Of a stretch of DNA of 64,000 nt, positions 6,610 through 42,372 are shown in pieces. Origin of the DNA: Dictyostelium discoideum (lineage: Eukaryota); the NCBI GenBank assembly GCA_000004695.1, contig CM000153.2:1696001-1760000 (forward strand), in the 5' to 3' direction. The notes below the pieces were generated by a model. That model did no database searches and was not told the origin of the DNA. It saw only the letters and a list, made by a program, of their open reading frames with translations. The position numbers and the translations under genes were made by a program. Within the stretch, counting starts at the first letter, position 1. Each line of letters starts with the position of its first letter.

Positions 6610-8463
6610 TTACTTTTTATTTGTTGTTGTTGTTGTCAAAGGTGATTTGGATGTCATATTAACAGATGATGATGATGATGAAGTTGTTGGAGAAGATTTT
6701 GGTTTTGATGGTGTTATTAAAATAGGTGATTCTTTTTTTGATGGTGTTGGTTTATTTACTGTCGGATTTGAATTTATTGTTGTTGTTGTTAAATTAACAG
6801 AGGACATTGTTTTTGATAAACTCGGAATTTTACCACCACCACCACTACTACTATTATTACCAACACTAGTTGGTGATAAATTTAAAGAGGATGAAGCCTT
6901 TGATAATGTTGGTATTTTTGGTGTTGTTGGAGAAGTAGTAAATGAAGATGATGGTGATGATGATGAAGAAGAGGGTTTTTTAGTTAATGGTGAGGGTTTC
7001 TTTGAAAGTGGTGTTGTTGGTCTTTGTGGTGTAGTTGGTGTTGTTGGTCTTATATTTTGTTGGGTTTGTTGAGGTTGTTCTTGAGGTTGTTGCTGTACAT
7101 TTATTGTTGAAGTTGTTGGTGATGAAGTTGGTGATGAAGTTGTTGTTGTTGTTGGTGATGAAGTTGTTGATGAATATGAAACCATTGGTGAATCTGATAT
7201 ATTTTCAGGATCTTTTTTTGTTACAAGTTTTAAATGAAGTAAATGAAAATCAGGTCTATCCTGTTCAGTATTCATTAATTCTAAATAAGAATTACCAAAA
7301 TATAGAAATGATTTTTGATTTTGATTTTCCCATTCAGCCAATTCCTTTACTAAATCAGTGGTAAGTATTGGATATTCTCTAGCTATAGTTTTACGAAATT
7401 TAGCTTCTTCCAATAATCTAATTGAACTACCTTTAAATCTACTAGGATCACTTGCACTAGTTTCAAAGTTTTTCATCTCACTCTTTATCCATTCCCTTCT
7501 TTTAACTTTATTTAAAATTGATTTCATTGAATCTAATAATTCATTTAATAATTTAATTTCTTTATCAATAATTTCTAATGTTTCAATATTATAATAATTT
7601 ATTTCATTTGAATAATCAATTTCATCATTATTATTATTATTATCATTATTATTATTATTATTTAATAATAAATCTTTTAAATTTCTTTGATTTAATGGTA
7701 TACATAATTGATCCCATAATGATTGTAATGATTTAAATTTTGATTGAAATGAATCTTTAAATTTTAATTTCTTTAAATTTGTTAAATGATTTGATTCTTG
7801 AGTTAATAGATTTATTAAGGATAATGATGGGATTGAAGGTGGTGGTAATTTATTTCTTTTTAATTTAAAGTTTAATCTAGTTTCATCATTTAATGGAATT
7901 GATAATTGTTGATAATCACGTTCAATTGAATTAATTTGATTATTAATTTGTTTTAATCTTTTCTCTTTCATTAGTTCAAATGTTTTAATTATTCCTTCAA
8001 TTTTATATAATATTTGAATTAATGATTTCATTTCTAATTTATTTTTTGAACAATCATCACCATCATCATCATCATTTAGTTTTAATTTATTTAAAATTTG
8101 ATTTAATTCATTATTTTCATTATTTTCAATAGTTGATTCTAATTCTAATTGATTTTTTAAATTTAATGCAATTGATTTTGAATCATTAATTTTATCCATA
8201 ATCGAGTTACGTATATCTTGTAATTTTTTAATTTCATTTTCAATTTCATCAATTCTTTTATTTGAAACTGATATACCAATTTCAATAAATGATGATGAAA
8301 CATATTCTGTATCTTTATTATCACTTAGATCAATTCCTAATTCTTTATATAATTTCATTAATTCTGAATAAACTTCTTTTAATTTAATTTCATTTTTATT
8401 ATATATCTTTTATTATTATATATACATTAGTAATTGATTAATAATAATTATTATAATTATTAC

Positions 8464-10281: not shown

Positions 10282-10442
10282 AAATAAATAAAAACAAATA
10301 AATAAATAAAAAAAAAAAAACAGAAATATAAATATAAATATACATCTTCTTCAGTTTCATCTTTATAGAAATCTCTTTCTCTAATTTCATTTATTAAATT
10401 GTAAATCACCCATTTTAATAATGTGTGAGTTATATTTAAAAA

Positions 10443-10562
10443 TGAAATTAGAGAAAGGGATTTTCATGAAGATGAAGCTGAAGAAGATTGTCCAACAAGT
10501 TGTTCAAGTGATGACCATGATGACACTTAAAAAGACAATAGAACAGGTCCAAATGATGTAAA
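10443..10562 (+). other. 39-codon ATG..TAA ORF of near-normal base composition in the atox1/mo25 divergent promoter
   Basis: ATGAAATTAGAGAAAGGG...CAAATGATGTAA reads MKLEKGIFMKMKLKKIVQQVVQVMTMMTLKKTIEQVQMM. Possible uORF or small gene; no support beyond being open. Confidence 0.15.
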
Positions 10563-21118: not shown

Positions 21119-21892
21119 ATGATAATATATTTAAGAACTGATGGATATTATAGTGGCAAAGAAAAGATATCAATAGTAAATGAAAATGTTAGATCAAAAT
21201 TAATTAGATGTAGAAGTTATGTAGTTGACAAATATTCAGATAAACAATTATTATTTTTAAATGGTAAAGTATTGAATGTGCATAAATCATTCTCAGAGAA
21301 TAACATTAAAGAAGGTGATGTAATAGAATGTTCAATGTTTCCATTGGCAACAGTTATCATTCATTATTTAGAACGTAAAATCATTGAACAATGTAAACAA
21401 ATGAAGACATCTGAACCCCAATCTTATTTCAATATGGGTACACTTAGGAAAAATTTAAGAATGGTTAGTGATAATTTCGATAAAATTAAATCTTATCAAT
21501 CTGATGGTTTAAATGGTTTAAAATTATTATTTAAAGATAATGGTAGTATGTATTATTCAATATTTTCATTTTACCTCTATTAATTATCCTACCCCCATAC
21601 TAATAATACCAATAAACAAAAAAAAAAAAAAAAAGTTTCACACAATGAAATTCAAGAGATTTACTTTAATTATGAAACTTTTGATATGCCTCAAAAAGAT
21701 CCATTGGATCATTTTATATCTAGAATTTATAATAAAACCACATCAACAACATCAATACCAATAGCCTTACCACTTACTAAAAAACCAATTATTAATAATA
21801 ATAATGATGATAGTGGGATAATTGTAAATTTGGACGATAATAATAGTGATGATGAGAGAACACCATCCTCACAGTCATTTTCGACACCTAAA

Positions 21893-21962
<70 letters not shown>

Positions 21963-22687
21963 CATATTCAACACCACAAAAACAACAAGCTCAACCTCAG
22001 CAACAATCATATTCAACACCACAAAAACAACAAACTCAAGTTCAACAACAATCATATTCAACACCACAAAAGCAACAAACTCCTCAACAGCAACAAACTC
22101 AAGTTCAACAACAATCATATTCAATACCACAAAAACAACAAGCTCAAGTTCAACAACAATCATATTCAACGCCACAGAAGCAACAAACTCCTCAACAGCA
22201 ACAAGCTCAAGTCCAACAACAATCATATTCAACGCCACAAAAGCAACCAACTCCTCAAGTTCAACAACAATCATATTCATCAACACCACAAAAGAATACA
22301 AGTTTTGAATTAGATAGTTATTTTGATGTTGATAATGAACTAGAAGTCTTTTCACAACCACAAACACCCTCTCAACAATCTGATAAATCGAAAACAGTTA
22401 TTTCACCTATATCAACACCTAAAAGCAAAATCTCTTTAAATGATTTCTCACTCATTAGTCCAATTTTGAAACACAGTACCAATAAAAGTGACTTGAAAAA
22501 GAACAATAGTTTTGATAAAGACATTGACTTTTTTGAAAATAATTTTAATATAAATGTAAATAGTTTAAATAATAGTCTTGGTAGTAGTCAAAATAGTGCA
22601 ACTATTTCGAATAGCAGTAGTCAAAATAGTATCACTGTCTCCCCAAATAACAGTTCAAATTGTATCAATAACGATAATAATAATAAC

Positions 22688-22718
<31 letters not shown>

Positions 22719-22960
22719 TCAGTAATAATTCTCTTGGGAAGAGACCCCTTTCACTATTCACTTCGACAACATCTAATAAAAAACAAACCACAACAACAAC
22801 TACCACTACTACAACCACCCCTACATCTACAACACCTACCAATAAAAAAAATATAACAGATTATTTTTTAGATGATTCCGAAGATGAAGATATTTTTGTA
22901 TCTTCATTATCTTCACAATCTTCCATGTCAAATAAATCAAATTCATCATTAAATAATTCA

Positions 22961-23025
<65 letters not shown>

Positions 23026-25226
23026 TAATTGTAAAGGAGGAAATTCAGATTTAGATTTTTTAGATGATTTCGATTTCGGTTATGAAGATGAAGAGTTCAT
23101 GTTTGATGAATATTCAATTAAAAAAAGTAGAAATGAACTCTCTTCTTCTTCTTCGCAACCATTTATAAATACATGTATAACTACTTCTACAAAAATAACA
23201 TCAACAAATTCAAATAAATTATTATCAAAATCAGAATCAAGTTTAGATACTTTACTTTTCAAAAAACCAAAAACACCTCAAAAAAAACAGAAACACATTT
23301 CTTCACCTTTGCTTCACTCATCTCAACCAATCCCTTTAACAATGGATTCATCACTTTCAAAAGATATTAAAAATTCATTGATACCAATAAAAACTCAACC
23401 AATAACAACTACCACTTCCACTACCACTACTAATAGTAATACAAATACTACCAATAATAATGATAATAGTATAATAAAAATAGAAAAACCATTTAAAAGA
23501 TTAACAAATGGATCAATACCACCAATATTAATATTAAATGCACCACTACCAAATAGATTTAAATTTAAAAGTAATTTATTAGATTTTAAACCAACATTTC
23601 AATATCCACCATTTTCATTATTGATTTCATTATCAGAGCTAAAGACATCAAAAGGTATAAAGACAGTATCAGTAAAAGAGATTATGGAAGGAGGTCAAAA
23701 CTATACCACTCTATGCGATACTCGTAATCCTGAATTTTCAATTGAATTAAAAACACCAAAATTTGCAATTACCAATACATTGATGGTTAATGATTGTTTA
23801 GAATTGGAGGAAGGTAAAGAAGATTCATTCTATATCACTGATTTAGGTTATCGTTATGCTAGAATATTTCAAGATTATCATAATGATTATTTAGAATTTT
23901 GTAAAGTAAACTCTTTAAGAATTAATGTTGCTCAAAATGATGTAACCATTGTAATTGATTCATCAGAGAAATTATCAAATGAATTTAAAAGAAACTTTAA
24001 TGAAATGGGTATAAATTCAATTAATACTTTTCAATTACCATCTGCTGATTTTATTTTCTTAAAAAAGAATTCAAATAATAATAATAATATCAATAATAAT
24101 AAGAATCATTCATTCTTTAATAATAATAATATTTATGATATTGATAGTGGTGGTAATGCATTAATGTTTCCATATATAATTGAAAGAAAAACTTGGAAAG
24201 ATTTAAGTGCATCAGAAAAGGATGGTCGTAATGCTAGACAAATGACAAAGATGAAAGCTTATGGTAAATTAAAAGGTAGATTCTATTTGGTTGAAGGTGA
24301 ACCTTCAAATTATAATTCAGAATATCAAGTTACAACAATTGAAGAATTAAAAAAGAGATTAGATCTTTTAACTACTGCTGATAATTTTACAATCATTAAA
24401 ACAAATTCACCCTATGATACAACTCGTCAAATTGCTATAATTGCAAAAATGTTATCAACTGATCCAATTTTATCAAATCCTTCAAATTTATTATTATATA
24501 ATGATTTTAAAGATGCTGTAACTAAATCAAATTATGAAAAATATCATCAAAATAATAATATTAATATTAATAATATCAACAATAATATCAATAATAATAA
24601 TCCAATTATGGAATTAGCATTAACACAAATGGCTGATCAAACTGATTTATCAGTTATAGAACATTCAAAATCTAAATCTGAAAAAATATGGTTTCAAATG
24701 ACAATTGATCAATTTAAAGAGTATATTCTATCATCAGATTATAGAGATCAAATTAGAAATACAATGAATAATAATGAATATAGTTCAAAAAGAAAGATTC
24801 TTATTATAAATGAATTTAATAAATTTAAAGTACAACAACAGAAATCTCATAATCAATTATTTCAAGATTACCTTTATCAAAGATATAATAATAGAAGTGT
24901 AAATAATATTTCTAAAAGTTTTAGAAATGAAAAAAGTTTATTACTCTCTGATTATTTAGATAATGATATAATTAATCATTATCTATTACAATTGATTCTA
25001 CATTTTAATCTTCAAATATTTATTCAATTTCATGATAGTGAACGTGGAAATGTTGAATCATTTTCATCATTTTCAAAATCAATTGAAAAAGCAATTCAAC
25101 TAAATCAAGATTATCAACACAATCTAAAATTTAAAACTATATTTGCCAAAACAATTCCAGTTTTTAGATCGATAAAACAACAAAGATTAGAAGATTCAAT
25201 TAATTATAGAAATGAATTAGAAAATT

Positions 25227-25299
<73 letters not shown>

Positions 25300-25366
25300 T
25301 AATAATAATAATAATAAAAATCAATTTAGTTATATTGATGATATTATTGATTTAGATGATGATTAA
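21119..25366 (+). CDS. mus81: Mus81-type ERCC4/XPF-family endonuclease with a long low-complexity N-terminal extension; about 1384 aa; 2 exons bridging an in-frame stop
   Basis: Proposed exons 21119..21542 and 21636..25366. The 93-nt intron GTAGTA..aaaag removes the single in-frame TAA at 21581 that separates ORF 21119..21583 from ORF 21686..25366 (same frame). Nuclease core: VTIVIDSSEK .. ADFIFL .. GGNALMFPYIIERKTWKDLSASEKDGRNARQMTKMKAYGKLKGRFYLVEGE, close to Mus81 [39 protein letters not shown]. The N-terminal part has a possible beta-grasp-like segment, polyQ, and about 8 tandem copies of a roughly 13-aa QQSYSTPQKQQ(A/T)QVQ unit (21963..22300). Confidence 0.7.
21895..22300 (+). repeat. coding (CAA)n polyQ followed by about 8 tandem repeats of roughly 39 nt (QQSYSTPQKQQxQVQ)
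   Basis: Periodic tcatattcaacaccacaaaaacaacaa..ctcaagttcaacaacaa units. Overlapping ORFs 21846..22313 (+) and 21888..22367 (-) are alternative-frame readings of this repeat. Confidence 0.85.
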
Positions 25367-25452
25367 AAAATTAAAAAATAATAATAAAATTAATTGTAAA
25401 TTTGTAAATATATTCATATACGTATGTAAAAATAAGTAAAAAAACTTACCAA

Positions 25453-25674
25453 TTAATTGATTTTGTAAAGTTTTTGATGATGTTGTAATTGTTGATGTTG
25501 TAGTTGTTCTTGGACATCTGGTTGGCTTTGACCAATTGACTCTTGTTTTTTTAATTTTTGTTCTTGGAAATTGATGTATTTCTTTCTATGTGTTGTTGTA
25601 GTCGTTGTCATCAAAAGGATTTTATTGAAGAAATGATCAAGATGCATTAAAGGTGAAAGACAATATGTTGCCAT
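25453..25674 (-). CDS. small ORF (73 aa) 87 nt downstream of mus81 on the opposite strand, abutting the GC-richer island
   Basis: Reads MATYCLSPLMHLDHFFNKILLMTTTTTTHRKKYINFQEQKLKKQESIGQSQPDVQEQLQHQQLQHHQKLYKIN. ATG start. No homolog recognised. Confidence 0.2.
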   Translation of the reverse strand: MATYCLSPLMHLDHFFNKILLMTTTTTTHRKKYINFQEQKLKKQESIGQSQPDVQEQLQHQQLQHHQKLYKIN

Positions 25675-25679
25675 TCAAA

Positions 25680-26250
25680 AATATGATTACGAACTACTAA
25701 AACACCATCCTTTAAATTTGAATTACATTGTTATAAACTTAAATGTAATGATGCCAAAGGTATTGGTAATCTCCACAGAATATCTATTAATTAATAATGT
25801 TGTAGAATATCAACTAATAGATTTTCTATAAGATTATCAATGATCAATTTACCTTTGGCATCATTACTTTTAAAGCAATTCCAATCACACGTTTCCTAAT
25901 TTGTGGGTAAAGAATTGACCAACTGGGACTTAAAAGGAATGATTGCATTCAGCTTGAAATGGTAGTCCTATGTATCTTATCCATCTCTATTATGGTTTAA
26001 AATTTTTTTTCTAACATCATCCCATATTTACCATCAGTTCAATTCAAATGATGGTAGTCTAAACTTTTGAAGATTTTAAATGCAACTGGATCAAGACCAT
26101 GACAACTGCGATTGAAAATCTTCCAAAGTCTAAGACTACCATCCTTTGTTCTTAACTCACTAAAAAAACATGGGATGGTGTAGGCAGTTTTAGGAGCAGC
26201 AGTGGTAAAGCTGTAGTAGCAGCGGCAGTAACACCAGTAGTATAGGTAAC
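25680..26250. other. GC-richer non-coding island with nested imperfect inverted repeats (candidate structured ncRNA or MITE-like relic)
   Basis: gtaatgatgccaaaggta (25746..25763) and tacctttggcatcattac (25851..25868) are exact reverse complements about 85 nt apart. A second imperfect pair, ggtagtctaaacttttgaagatttt / aaaatcttccaaagtctaagactacc, lies around 26055..26145. A local palindrome ccatcagttcaattcaaatgatgg is also present. No long ORF on the + strand. Confidence 0.35.
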
Positions 26251-26388
26251 ATGTGTTGAAGAATATTTATTTCCATTATCATTTGTATCTGGTTTATTTC
26301 TTTGGTTACCATTAATTTTCAACCTAATATTTTTTAGATCTACAAATATTCAAGCAAGAAGATTTTCTGTTGCACCATTAATAACAGA
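26246..26388 (+). pseudogene. degenerate paralog copy of the small TM-protein exon at 27012..27169
   Basis: Reads ..EEYLFPLSFVSGLFLWLPLIFNLIFFRSTNIQARRFSVAPLITECKKKYKK*, versus ..EHDYPFSLTFIIMGVFVWLPFLFNIVYIRSPNIHARRIAFASMILA in the second copy. About 75% DNA identity with a frame-preserving 3-nt indel. Copy 1 has GAATGT where copy 2 has the GTATGT donor and runs into a stop. No in-frame ATG. Confidence 0.3.
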
Positions 26389-26789
26389 ATGTAAAAAAAA
26401 ATATAAAAAATAAAATATAAAATAATATATTAAAATTTCTTCTTTATTCTTTTACAAAAAGATTTGTTAATACTATGAAGATTATTCAATCTTTTTTTTT
26501 TTTTTTTCTTTACTTTATTTATTTTAGTTTCACCAATTTTATTTTTTAATTATGTTGTAATGTTAATATATCCAATGAGAATCATATACTTTGTAACAAT
26601 TTTCTTCTAAATATTTATTTTTTTTTTTTTTTAACCACAACCACCATTTTTATTTTTACTTTGGATTATTAAATAAACTTGTTTTTACATCTACCATTTT
26701 TTGGTTTTCCAACATCCAAAAATTAATAAAAATTTTATTTGTAAACTATCCTTTTTCCTTTTTTTTTTTTATTTATTTATTTTGCTTTT

Positions 26790-26842
<53 letters not shown>

Positions 26843-27011
26843 CCATTGATATTCAATCTTTAGTTTTTTTTTTTTTTTTTAATTTTAATAATTTTTTATA
26901 ACTATATATATAAAATTAATGATTCTAGAAAATTTGATATTGAGAGTACACATGGAGCAAGCCCAGAATTTAAAAAAGGAAATGAAATTTGTAAAAATAA
27001 ATTTAAATCAG

Positions 27012-27329
27012 AATCAAATCCAAAAGAATTTGAACATGATTATCCATTTTCATTAACATTCATAATAATGGGGGTATTTGTTTGGTTACCATTCCTTTTC
27101 AACATTGTATATATTAGATCACCTAATATCCATGCAAGAAGAATTGCATTTGCTTCAATGATACTTGCAGTATGTATACAAAATAATAATAAAAAAAAAA
27201 AAAATTAAAAAACTAACAAATATTAAATTATATTAAAAAAAACAGGGTATTTATTTCATTGCTATTATCTTTACTGTCGCAATTGCTGGATGTGCCTTTT
27301 TCTACTATTCCTCTGATAACACCATTTAA
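27012..27329 (+). CDS. small two-helix membrane protein (3' exons only; start exon not found)
   Basis: Exon ..27169 (..SNPKEFEHDYPFSLTFIIMGVFVWLPFLFNIVYIRSPNIHARRIAFASMILA|GTATGT) plus exon 27246..27329 (GIYFIAIIFTVAIAGCAFFYYSSDNTI*). The frame is open from 26864 with no ATG, so an upstream micro-exon is expected. Coding is supported by amino-acid-level conservation with 26246..26388. Confidence 0.35.
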
Positions 27330-27376
27330 AAACTAAATAAATAAATTATAATTTTTATTTAATTAATTAAATGTTT

Positions 27377-27410
<34 letters not shown>

Positions 27411-27674
27411 TATAAAATTCAATTTTAATTTTAATCAATCTATATTTTTTTTTTTTCTAAAGTATGTTTGTAACTAATTTGTTTTTGAACAATGAAAAAA
27501 AAATTAAAAAAAAAAAGATAAAATTGTTTGTGTATATTAATAAATGGGAATAAAATTTTTTTTTACTATTTTTTTTTTTTTTTTTTTGTGAGTATGTAAT
27601 TTTTTAATTTATTTAAAAATATTTTTAATAAATCAAAATTGAACAATTTGTTTTCTTTTGAGATAATTAAAAAT

Positions 27675-42232: not shown

Positions 42233-42246
42233 CCAAATTTTTTTCC

Positions 42247-42280
<34 letters not shown>

Positions 42281-42337
42281 CCCAAATTTCCTTTCTAAAT
42301 CAAAGGGAAATGAGATTATATTAATCTTCCAAACCCA

Positions 42338-42372
<35 letters not shown>

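What the first reader, a model, noticed from the sequence alone, without database searches (positions are those of the whole stretch)
25680..27330. GC-richer island with nested inverted repeats, followed by a tandemly duplicated small membrane-protein gene (one copy degenerate)
25680..26250 is markedly less AT-rich than the surrounding spacer and has no long ORF. It contains a perfect 18-nt inverted repeat (gtaatgatgccaaaggta / tacctttggcatcattac) about 85 nt apart, a second imperfect pair of about 25 nt with a loop of about 45 nt, and a local palindrome. That architecture resembles a hairpin-forming ncRNA locus or a non-autonomous TIR element (MITE-like; Dictyostelium has small thug-type elements). 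Immediately 3' lie two paralogous segments (26246..26388 and 27012..27169, about 75% identical, with a frame-preserving 3-nt indel) encoding a WLP(L/F)(I/L)FN..RS.NI.ARR motif. The downstream copy has an intact GTATGT donor and a terminal TM exon (27246..27329); the upstream copy has lost the donor and no copy has an in-frame ATG. Together this looks like a recent local duplication, possibly seeded by the repeat island.
Basis: seen in the sequence. Interest (0 to 1): 0.6.

Follow-up and report, generated by a model that had tools for sequence, protein, structure and literature searches.

The report
Young insertion carrying two long hairpins
A 2.1-kb piece of DNA found at this spot only in the Dictyostelium discoideum lineage carries a decaying copy of a small membrane-protein gene pair and two very stable hairpin-forming inverted repeats, which look like neutral relics, or at best raw material for new microRNAs, rather than a working RNA gene or a transposon.

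Summary
The window is D. discoideum AX4 chromosome 4. HP1 (25739-25873) and HP2 (26045-26148) are the 2nd and 3rd most stable hairpins in the 64 kb, after the known miRNA precursor ddi-mir-1186.

The interpretation mostly fails. About 25438-27586 is one lineage-specific insertion. It is absent from D. citrinum, D. dimigraforme and one 'cf. discoideum' strain, present in three D. discoideum-type genomes, and partly deleted in a fourth.

Its right two-thirds (26258/26288-27407) is a dispersed copy of a tandem gene pair from a chromosome 3 cluster of a small two-TM protein family. It is not a local duplication seeded by the island. Copy A is a dead pseudogene. Copy B is the annotated DDB_G0284233, and in AX4 its ancestral ATG is ATT.

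The island is unique and non-coding, with no Rfam or Pfam match. Its hairpins diverge at the neutral rate, show no compensatory changes, and are absent from the published miRNA tables I could read.

Best reading: neutrally decaying inverted duplications that arrived with the insertion. Residual possibility: young hairpin-RNA loci.

The parts
25438..27586 (.). Lineage-specific insertion block of about 2.15 kb, lying between the stop of the ERCC4-domain gene (25366) and the 3' end of DDB_G0284235 (27675)
   Evidence: Window 25413/25439 and 27593/27601 are adjacent in D. citrinum (L006, L007), ACTFIZ (L009) and D. dimigraforme (L014). The block is present in L002, L010 and L011. ACTFIY (L008) shares both junctions but has internal deletions. 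The junctions share only GTA microhomology (read from the alignment).
25453..25674 (-). 73-aa ORF annotated in AX4 as DDB_G0284229 (putative uncharacterized protein)
   Evidence: Exact match to XP_638660. It lies entirely inside the insertion. ACTFIW and ACTFIR carry a 60-nt deletion, and ACTFIR has a further deletion of about 80 nt. ACTFIY lacks it.
25675..26257 (.). GC-richer non-coding 'island' of unknown origin
   Evidence: GC 0.25-0.43. Stops occur in all six frames. No Pfam hit and no Rfam hit at gathering score. No homologue in the chromosome 3 donor loci or elsewhere in about 243 kb.
25739..25873 (.). HP1: inverted repeat with arms of about 57-67 nt and an apex of about 11 nt
   Evidence: MFE is -50.3 (+) and -57.0 (-) kcal/mol, with z -10.6 and -11.5. 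The orthologues in ACTFIW/ACTFIR are more perfect, at -66 to -80 kcal/mol. AX4 has a 9-nt deletion in the left arm.
26014..26181 (.). HP2 with its outer nested pair. The core hairpin is 26045-26148; the outer pair is 26014-26029 / 26166-26181
   Evidence: Core MFE is -36.7 (+) and -43.8 (-), with z -6.5 and -6.75. The extended form folds at -56.7 (+) and -68.1 (-).
26029..26056 (.). Local palindrome TACCATCAGTTCAA/TTCAAATGATGGTA at the base of HP2
   Evidence: (I8).
26258..26390 (+). Copy A: pseudogene fragment of an A-type family gene (exon 1 remnant)
   Evidence: 77% aa identity to P0001 residues 44-86. It has no start codon or recognisable N-terminal 43 codons, the GTATGT donor is removed by a 7-nt deletion, and the exon 2 remnant at about 26462 reads I-C-stop. 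ACTFIR has an extra in-frame stop (W to stop).
26391..26914 (+). Inter-copy spacer, copied together with the genes. It includes a 50-nt poly-T tract (26795-26845) upstream of copy B
   Evidence: It aligns with the chromosome 3 spacer: 26462-27407 vs L004 6509-7376 at 78%, and 26397-27403 vs L005 at 80%. The sequence was read.
26915..27169 (+). Copy B exon 1. The ancestral start codon is at 26915-26917 (ATT in AX4). The annotated start of DDB_G0284233 is the ATG at 27068
   Evidence: The orthologue P0002 (112 aa, ACTFIR) starts MNDSRKF at the position where AX4 reads INDSRKF. ATT is present in both AX4-lineage assemblies and ATG in ACTFIW/ACTFIR. The 61-aa product equals XP_638662.
27170..27245 (+). 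Copy B intron (GTATGT ... CAG)
   Evidence: Read from the sequence. The spliced product matches P0002 and P0022.
27246..27329 (+). Copy B exon 2, encoding the second TM helix, with stop TAA at 27327-27329

Best explanation
The finding is one evolutionarily young insertion of about 2.15 kb (about 25438-27586) in the convergent intergenic region between an ERCC4-domain gene and DDB_G0284235 on D. discoideum chromosome 4.

Shown: its right two-thirds is a dispersed copy of a tandem pair (A-type gene, spacer, B-type gene) from a chromosome 3 cluster that encodes a small two-TM protein family with no Pfam assignment. Copy A is dead. Copy B is still gene-like and better conserved than its surroundings, but in the AX4 lineage it has lost its ancestral ATG. 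It is annotated only as a 61-aa N-terminally truncated product, DDB_G0284233.

Shown: the left third (about 820 nt, including the GC-richer island) is unique non-coding DNA containing two long inverted duplications, HP1 and HP2.

Inferred: these palindromes were created at or near the time of insertion, for example by fold-back or template-switch repair, or they came in with filler DNA. Since then they have simply decayed. They would fold into long hairpins if transcribed, but nothing indicates that the fold is maintained. On this reading the island does nothing, and it did not seed the gene duplication.
For: Identity of the locus: exact AX4 proteins DDB_G0284223, G0284235, G0284315 and rps12.

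Insertion: the block is absent, with clean junctions, in L006, L007, L009 and L014. It is present in L002, L010 and L011. In L008 both junctions are shared but the interior is deleted.

Donor: 26288-27407 aligns with the chromosome 3 loci L004, L005 and L003 at 75-87%, spacer included. The island has no counterpart there.

No coding signal in the island: stops in every frame, no Pfam hit.

No known RNA family. No tRNA anywhere in the window.

Neutral evolution: identity between AX4 and ACTFIW/ACTFIR is 0.90-0.93 for HP1 and 0.86-0.89 for HP2. The spacer is 0.89-0.90 and the copy B exons are 0.94-0.97.

No compensatory pair changes were found among 42-65 predicted pairs. All changes are one-sided or disruptive, and the better-folding strand of HP2 differs between lineages.

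Arm-to-arm divergence is 11-14% for HP1 and 17-29% for HP2. This is at least as large as the orthologous divergence of about 9%, as expected without selection or conversion.

AX4 lost 9 nt of one HP1 arm. ACTFIY lost the HP1 apex and all of HP2.

The 2024 list of bona fide D. discoideum miRNAs has chromosome 4 loci only at 0.736, 1.477 and 1.706 Mb. The 2018 table of newly identified DrnB-dependent miRNAs has none near 1.722 Mb.
Against: In this window, hairpins of this stability are otherwise seen only at a validated miRNA gene, ddi-mir-1186. So the shape alone gives a non-trivial prior for small-RNA production.

Folding energies per nucleotide (-0.35 to -0.52) overlap those of published D. 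discoideum precursors.

Only two independent lineages are available for HP2 and three for HP1, so the absence of covariation is weak evidence.

I could not read the Avesson 2012 miRNA list or any small-RNA read data.

The origin of the left 820 nt is unknown.

A collinear 13/15-nt match (26160-26175 to codons 11-15 of the chromosome 3 A-type exon) hints that copy A homology may continue under the GC-rich segment. I cannot explain this.
Confidence: 0.6

Rival explanations
1. HP1 and/or HP2 are young hairpin-RNA genes (proto-miRNA or hpRNA). A transcript through the island, most plausibly on the minus strand in AX4, folds into one or two long stem-loops. The DrnB/RbdB microprocessor would dice these into roughly 21-nt RNAs. 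The locus would be an example of the 'miRNA module gain' described for Dictyostelium.
For: They are the 2nd and 3rd most stable hairpins in 64 kb, next to the validated ddi-mir-1186. Z-scores range from -6.5 to -11.5. Length (104-143 nt) and energy per nucleotide fall in the range of known ddi precursors. [quoted passage not shown] In AX4 both hairpins fold better on the minus strand. The whole island folds with both hairpins intact, z -8.7.
Against: No miRNA is listed at this position in the 2018 table of new miRNAs or the 2024 table of bona fide miRNAs, and the hairpin sequences do not occur in the supplements of PMC6161686 or PMC11014262; the PMC4894637 supplements were checked only for a short HP1 motif and the estimated coordinates. 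Divergence is at the neutral rate and there are no compensatory substitutions. The preferred strand of HP2 flips between lineages. ACTFIY deleted HP2 entirely. There is no long poly-T tract of the kind reported upstream of pri-miRNA start sites (PMC6161686; sequence read). No target is known.
Confidence: 0.22
2. The island, or HP1 and HP2 separately, is a non-autonomous foldback or MITE-like DNA transposon. It inserted here and may have carried or attracted the gene fragment.
For: Long inverted repeats with short spacers are the architecture of foldback elements. HP1 is bounded by TTAA on both sides (sequence). The whole block is an insertion.
Against: No second copy was found in the 64-kb window or in about 243 kb of related loci from eight genomes. 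There is no target-site duplication at HP1, at HP2 or at the block ends beyond GTA microhomology, and the TTAA is part of the palindrome itself. The block ends are not inverted repeats. The solo HP1 in ACTFIY shares both block junctions, so it is a deletion product and not an independent insertion. No transposase-like ORF and no Pfam hit.
Confidence: 0.1
3. The island is the exon-rich or decayed part of a protein-coding gene on the minus strand. One version would have it continue into DDB_G0284229. Another would make it a WD40-like gene, as suggested by the peptide DGSLRLW.
For: GC content and some codon choices (ACT GGT GTT ACT GCC GCT) look coding-like. There is a 75-codon stop-free stretch at 26042-26266 on the minus strand. 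AX4 annotates a 73-aa ORF immediately downstream on that strand.
Against: Stops interrupt every frame. No Pfam family, WD40 included, matches any fragment. No protein hit was found, although those searches were capped. The ORFs are not preserved in ACTFIW/ACTFIR. The region is absent from four related genomes. The new AX4-lineage annotation calls no gene here.
Confidence: 0.04

Closest known systems
D. discoideum intergenic miRNA precursors, e.g. ddi-mir-1186 (miRNA_can_D1), which lies about 15 kb upstream in the same window
   Same: A single long imperfect stem-loop of 100-150 nt in an intergenic region. The fold energy stands out from the background in the same way. The locus is lineage-specific, which fits the reported rapid gain and loss of miRNA modules.
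   Different: There is no small-RNA evidence and no entry in the published tables I could read. No structure-preserving evolution is seen. Two hairpins are nested in a larger palindromic arrangement.
Young plant MIRNA / hpRNA loci formed by inverted duplication of a gene fragment (Allen et al. 2004 model; cited from my own knowledge)
   Same: Long, nearly perfect arms that decay by point mutation. The ancestral HP1 was more perfect than the AX4 copy. It sits next to duplicated gene material.
   Different: The arms have no detectable similarity to the neighbouring family genes or to anything else I could search, so no parent or target gene is known.
Foldback / MITE-type non-autonomous DNA transposons, including the Dictyostelium thug elements
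   Same: Inverted-repeat architecture with little internal sequence.
   Different: It is single-copy in all the sequence available to me and has no target-site duplication. I had no thug reference sequence, so direct comparison was impossible. Thug-S is described as having an intron (PMC4894637), so it is not simply a small hairpin element.
Dispersed (inter-chromosomal) segmental duplication of a tandem gene-family cluster, followed by pseudogenisation
   Same: Genes, spacer and 3' flank were copied as one block from the chromosome 3 cluster. One copy is dead and the other has a damaged start.
   Different: The copy is flanked on one side by about 820 nt of palindrome-rich DNA that is absent from the donor loci I could see.

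Membership tests
Canonical D. discoideum miRNA gene (miRBase high-confidence / Axtell criteria as applied in PMC6161686 and PMC11014262) | Precursor folds into a hairpin with free energy below -0.2 kcal/mol/nt | tested here: met
   HP1 is -0.35 to -0.40 in AX4 and -0.43 to -0.52 in ACTFIW/ACTFIR. HP2 is -0.32 to -0.39.
Canonical D. discoideum miRNA gene (miRBase high-confidence / Axtell criteria as applied in PMC6161686 and PMC11014262) | Discrete mir-5p and mir-3p reads with a precise 5' end and a 0-4 nt 3' overhang | not testable with these tools
   No read data were available. No locus is listed near chr4:1.722 Mb in Table S1 of PMC6161686 or Table S4 of PMC11014262. The Avesson 2012 list could not be read.
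Canonical D. discoideum miRNA gene (miRBase high-confidence / Axtell criteria as applied in PMC6161686 and PMC11014262) | Dependence on DrnB/RbdB | not testable with these tools
   This needs mutant small-RNA libraries.
Structured ncRNA under selection (any family) | Base pairs preserved by compensatory changes, or conservation above the neutral level | tested here: not met
   No compensatory pairs were found. Hairpin identity equals spacer identity. Power is low because there are only 3-4 genomes.
Rfam families | Score at or above the gathering threshold | tested here: not met
   The best hit is mir-191 at 26.3 bits against a threshold of 54. Nothing in the whole window reaches gathering score.
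MITE / foldback DNA transposon | Multiple dispersed copies | tested here: inconclusive
   No other copy in the window or in about 243 kb of related loci. The whole genome could not be searched. Metagenome 18-mer hits are chance matches.
MITE / foldback DNA transposon | Target-site duplication flanking terminal inverted repeats | tested here: not met
   Comparison with the empty sites shows only GTA microhomology at the block ends. There is no TSD at HP1 or HP2.
Small two-TM protein family of DDB_G0282635 / P0002 (no Pfam) | Motif W-L-P-(L/F)-(L/I)-F-N-x-x-(Y/F)-(I/F)-R-S-x-N-I-x-A-R-R between two hydrophobic helices, with the second helix on a separate exon | tested here: met
   Copy B is 94% identical to P0002, and the profile finds 12 cluster representatives. 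Copy A keeps the motif but has no start, no donor and no usable exon 2.
Protein-coding exon on the minus strand | An open frame that is conserved in orthologues and has protein homologues | tested here: not met
   (capped).

The most novel reading that the evidence does not exclude
HP1 and HP2 are newborn hairpin-RNA (proto-miRNA) loci that can be dated. They were created by a single insertion after the D. discoideum lineage split from ACTFIZ-type 'cf. discoideum', D. citrinum and D. dimigraforme. They are now at different stages of decay or maturation in AX4, ACTFIW/ACTFIR and ACTFIY. If they yield DrnB-dependent small RNAs, this would be a natural time series for miRNA birth in Amoebozoa.
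Probability: 0.18. Interest if true: 0.55.

Novelty: new member of a known kind. Interest (0 to 1): 0.3.

Why it matters
Mostly it matters as a correction. The 'island plus duplicated gene' is not a local duplication or a transposon. It is one young inter-chromosomal insertion, and its parts are already partly annotated as DDB_G0284229 and DDB_G0284233.

Two by-products are useful. First, DDB_G0284233 in AX4 is an N-terminally truncated remnant of a 112-aa gene, because its start codon changed from ATG to ATT. DDB_G0284229 lies wholly in lineage-specific, poorly conserved DNA and is probably not a real gene. Second, the locus offers a dated pair of long inverted duplications in a species where miRNA genes are known to appear and vanish as whole modules. 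If existing small-RNA libraries show reads here, it becomes a concrete case of miRNA birth. If not, it is a clean example of the neutral raw material.

Tried and rejected
1. A-to-G hypermutation of copy A's N-terminal region as the source of the GC-rich segment. Rejected: transitions (25) do not exceed transversions (55), and the local alignment score is reached by 14-17% of shuffles. Only a collinear 13/15 match remains as a hint.

2. A WD40 origin, suggested by the peptide DGSLRLW. No Pfam hit.

3. HP1 as an independent MITE in ACTFIY. Rejected because that strain shares both block junctions.

4. Protein searches of six-frame fragments of 25676-26350 and 26246-27070. The second did not even recover the known family, so both are uninformative negatives.

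5. Exact look-ups of the ERCC4 ORF, P0005 and P0022 in the gene-position index found nothing, so I could not display the AX4 reference gene table.

6. The Logan contigs carrying the 73-aa ORF cover 25298-26504 and end in low-complexity runs. This says nothing about transcription.

7. A metagenome scan for the HP1 18-mer gave 31 single-arm hits with no extended similarity, which is chance level. A viral scan for HP2 gave no hits.

8. Literature searches for the hairpin sequences, the gene IDs and the ddi-mir-70xx names found nothing. The Avesson 2012 paper is not held.

9. Similarity between the island and the regions upstream of the chromosome 3 genes, on either strand, is no better than shuffles.
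Full report
WHERE WE ARE. Four ORFs of the window are exact matches to D. discoideum AX4 proteins DDB_G0284223, DDB_G0284235, DDB_G0284315 and ribosomal protein S12. The window is therefore AX4 chromosome 4. A known miRNA, ddi-mir-1186 (miRNA_can_D1), matches window 10440-10461 exactly. Its published position is chr4:1,706,344-1,706,488 (PMC6161686 Table S1; PMC11014262 Table S4). This puts the window start near chr4:1,696,000 and the finding near 1.7217-1.7233 Mb; that conversion is my inference. The finding lies between the stop of an ERCC4-domain gene (21686-25366 +; Pfam ERCC4) and the 3' end of DDB_G0284235 (27675-28466 and further, minus strand).

THE OBSERVATION. The sequence features exist as described.
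- GC reaches 0.25-0.43 over 25650-26299, against 0.03-0.20 in the flanks.
- HP1: the 18-nt perfect inverted repeat is the core of a 24-nt, 96% pair (25739-25762 / 25850-25873). The whole 135-nt segment is self-complementary.
- HP2: arms 26036-26081 / 26111-26157, a palindrome at 26029-26056 and an outer pair 26014-26029 / 26166-26181.
- As RNA, HP1 folds at -50.3 (+) and -57.0 (-) kcal/mol, with z -10.6 and -11.5. HP2 folds at -36.7 and -43.8, with z -6.5 and -6.75.
- In a 130-nt sliding fold of the whole window on both strands, the three best hairpins are ddi-mir-1186 (-62.9), HP1 (-54.8) and HP2 (-47.8). The fourth is -38.6, the mean is -13.3 and the 0.1% quantile is -40.8. The hairpins are far beyond chance.
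- The two paralogous coding segments, the 3-nt indel, the donor and terminal exon of the downstream copy, and the lost donor of the upstream copy are also confirmed.
- One claim is wrong. Copy B does have an in-frame ATG at 27068, and AX4 annotates a 61-aa protein from it, DDB_G0284233.

THE BLOCK IS A LINEAGE-SPECIFIC INSERTION. I fetched the orthologous locus from eight other assemblies through the conserved neighbours. In D. citrinum (two strains), D. dimigraforme and the 'cf. discoideum' strain ACTFIZ, the two flanking genes are only about 135-250 nt apart, and window positions about 25413-25439 and 27593-27601 abut. The whole of about 25438-27586 is present in a second AX4-lineage assembly (99.2-99.5% identical) and in the divergent D. 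discoideum strains ACTFIW and ACTFIR (about 88% identical).

Strain ACTFIY looked at first as if it had HP1 alone. In fact it shares both outer junctions of the block. It has three internal deletions: 25459-25707, the apex of HP1, and about 25880-27480. So there was one insertion event, followed by deletions in ACTFIY. The junctions show only a GTA microhomology, with no terminal inverted repeats and no clear target-site duplication.

THE GENE PAIR WAS COPIED FROM CHROMOSOME 3. Copy B's conceptual product finds five relatives. One is the 112-aa orthologue in ACTFIR at this same locus. The others are genes in a cluster on another chromosome: DDB_G0282635 in AX4, and the loci L003, L004 and L005.

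Window 26288-27407 covers copy A from its conserved core, the 0.5-kb spacer, copy B and about 80 nt of 3' flank. It aligns collinearly with an A-type/B-type tandem pair in that cluster at 75-87%. The cluster also exists in ACTFIZ, which lacks the chromosome 4 block, so chromosome 3 is the older locus. The tandem arrangement was inherited, not generated locally, and the island has no counterpart at the donor loci.

Compared with intact A-type genes (111 aa, two exons), copy A has no start or recognisable first 43 codons. It has a 7-nt deletion that removes the GTATGT donor, and its exon 2 remnant reads I-C-stop. ACTFIR adds a W-to-stop change. Copy A is a pseudogene.

Copy B is better conserved than its surroundings: exons 0.94-0.97 against 0.89-0.90 for the spacer. 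However, the codon that is ATG in ACTFIW and ACTFIR is ATT in both AX4-lineage assemblies. The annotated AX4 product starts inside the first TM helix. The newer AX4-lineage annotation calls no gene between the two flanking genes.

A profile of the family finds only 12 cluster representatives among 1.84 billion. All share the motif ...F(W/F)(L/V)P.(F/I)F....(I/L)(R/K)S....AR(R/K)... between two hydrophobic segments. No Pfam family matches. Its function is unknown.

THE ISLAND. The left 820 nt or so of the insertion consists of the annotated 73-aa ORF DDB_G0284229 (25453-25674, minus) and the island proper.
- I found no sign of coding. There are stops in all frames, no Pfam match including WD40, and no protein hit. 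Both protein searches were truncated at 8000 candidates and count for little.
- The 73-aa ORF is cut by deletions in ACTFIW/ACTFIR and is missing in ACTFIY.
- There is no Rfam family at gathering score. The sub-threshold hits are generic miRNA-hairpin models on HP2, the best being 26.3 bits against a threshold of 54.
- There are no tRNA genes that would suggest a TRE-type target.
- There is no other copy of any part of the island in the window or in about 243 kb of fetched loci.

ARE THE HAIRPINS MAINTAINED? Identity between AX4 and ACTFIW/ACTFIR is 0.90-0.93 in HP1 and 0.86-0.89 in HP2. This is indistinguishable from the flanking island segments (0.83-0.90) and from the spacer.

Among 42-65 predicted pairs per hairpin there is not one compensatory double change. 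Variable pairs are one-sided or broken.

HP1 was more perfect ancestrally, at -66 to -80 kcal/mol in ACTFIW/ACTFIR. AX4 has lost 9 nt from one arm, and ACTFIY has lost the apex.

For HP2 the better-folding strand is the minus strand in AX4 but the plus strand in ACTFIW/ACTFIR.

Arm-to-arm divergence within a genome is 11-14% for HP1 and 17-29% for HP2. This is at least as large as the orthologous divergence of about 9%. That is what is expected if two arms drift independently from an inverted duplication made shortly before these lineages split. Neither selection for pairing nor arm-to-arm conversion is needed. With only two or three independent lineages this is not a strong test, but every indicator points the same way.

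LITERATURE. D. discoideum miRNA precursors are mostly intergenic hairpins of 100-190 nt with -0.43 to -0.73 kcal/mol/nt. They turn over quickly by gain and loss of whole modules, and unusually long, nearly perfect hairpins are regarded as newly evolved (PMC11014262). HP1 and HP2 fit this shape.

Against this, the 2024 table of bona fide miRNAs lists chromosome 4 loci only at 735,807, 1,476,903 and 1,706,364. The 2018 table of newly identified DrnB-dependent miRNAs has none near 1.722 Mb. Sequence strings from both hairpins do not occur in the supplements of PMC6161686 or PMC11014262; in the PMC4894637 supplements I searched only a short HP1 motif and the estimated coordinates. I could not read Avesson et al. 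2012.

CONCLUSION. The best-supported account, at about 0.6, is this. A single insertion of about 2.15 kb in the D. discoideum lineage brought in a partial copy of a chromosome 3 gene pair, together with about 0.8 kb of palindrome-rich DNA of unknown source. Copy A is dead and copy B is degenerating in AX4. The two inverted duplications are decaying neutrally.

That they are young hairpin-RNA loci remains possible (about 0.2). Existing small-RNA libraries would settle it. A transposon (about 0.1) and a minus-strand gene (below 0.05) are unlikely.

Two things remain unexplained. One is the source of the left 820 nt. The other is a collinear 13/15 match between 26160-26175 and codons 11-15 of the chromosome 3 A-type exon. 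My rough estimate for that fixed diagonal is p of about 0.005. It hints that copy A homology may run under the GC-rich segment up to the edge of HP2.

Noticed in passing
window 10351-10480 (+): The most stable hairpin of the window (-62.9 kcal/mol) is the published DrnB-dependent miRNA gene ddi-mir-1186 (miRNA_can_D1). Its 3p sequence matches 10440-10461 exactly. Rfam has no model for it.
   Followed up: yes
window 26915-26917 and 27068: The start codon of the 112-aa orthologue (ATG in ACTFIW/ACTFIR) is ATT in AX4 and in a second AX4-lineage assembly. The reference gene DDB_G0284233 is therefore annotated from an internal ATG as a 61-aa product that begins inside TM1.
   Followed up: yes
window 25453-25674 (-): DDB_G0284229 (73 aa, listed as a 'putative uncharacterized protein') lies wholly inside the lineage-specific insertion. 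It is shortened by a 60-nt deletion in ACTFIW/ACTFIR, further deleted in ACTFIR, and absent in ACTFIY. It is probably a spurious or de novo ORF.
   Followed up: partly
window about 25675-27067: The RefSeq accession numbers run XP_638660 (DDB_G0284229), then a gap, then XP_638662 (DDB_G0284233). This suggests one more AX4 gene model (XP_638661, presumably DDB_G0284231) in this interval. None of the unspliced ATG ORFs I tested is in the protein collection, and I could not retrieve the model.
   Followed up: partly
window 26160-26175 vs L004 6031-6046: A 13/15-nt match (TAAAAAAACATGGGA vs TAGAAAAAAATGGGA) lies on the same diagonal as the copy A homology, 95 nt upstream of where recognisable similarity ends. 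The sequence in between is GC-rich and unrelated. The local score alone is not significant.
   Followed up: partly
L003 2718-6437, L004 5369-7376, L005 5018-6507: The chromosome 3 cluster of the small two-TM family varies in copy number and orientation. ACTFIZ has five called genes in alternating orientation. The AX4 lineage has three copies, one of them inverted. The AX4 models P0001 and P0005 fuse the A-type and B-type genes, and P0005 does so through a frameshifted reading.
   Followed up: partly
window 21119-25366 (+): The 1226-aa ERCC4-domain ORF is not on record as a product. The newer AX4-lineage annotation calls a 1385-aa gene that starts about 570 nt upstream, near 21119, so the gene has at least one further upstream exon.
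   Followed up: no
window 42241-42370 (-): A long, almost purely A/T hairpin (GC 0.16, -32.7 kcal/mol, about 31 uninterrupted pairs) turned up in the fold scan. I did not examine it.
   Followed up: no
L015, L016 (Logan SRR26869267 / SRR26869266): Two short-read contigs of about 1.2 kb cover window 25298-26504 at 99.7% identity. They break at the (AAT)n tract and at a poly-T run. Whether these runs are DNA or RNA is unknown to me.
   Followed up: partly
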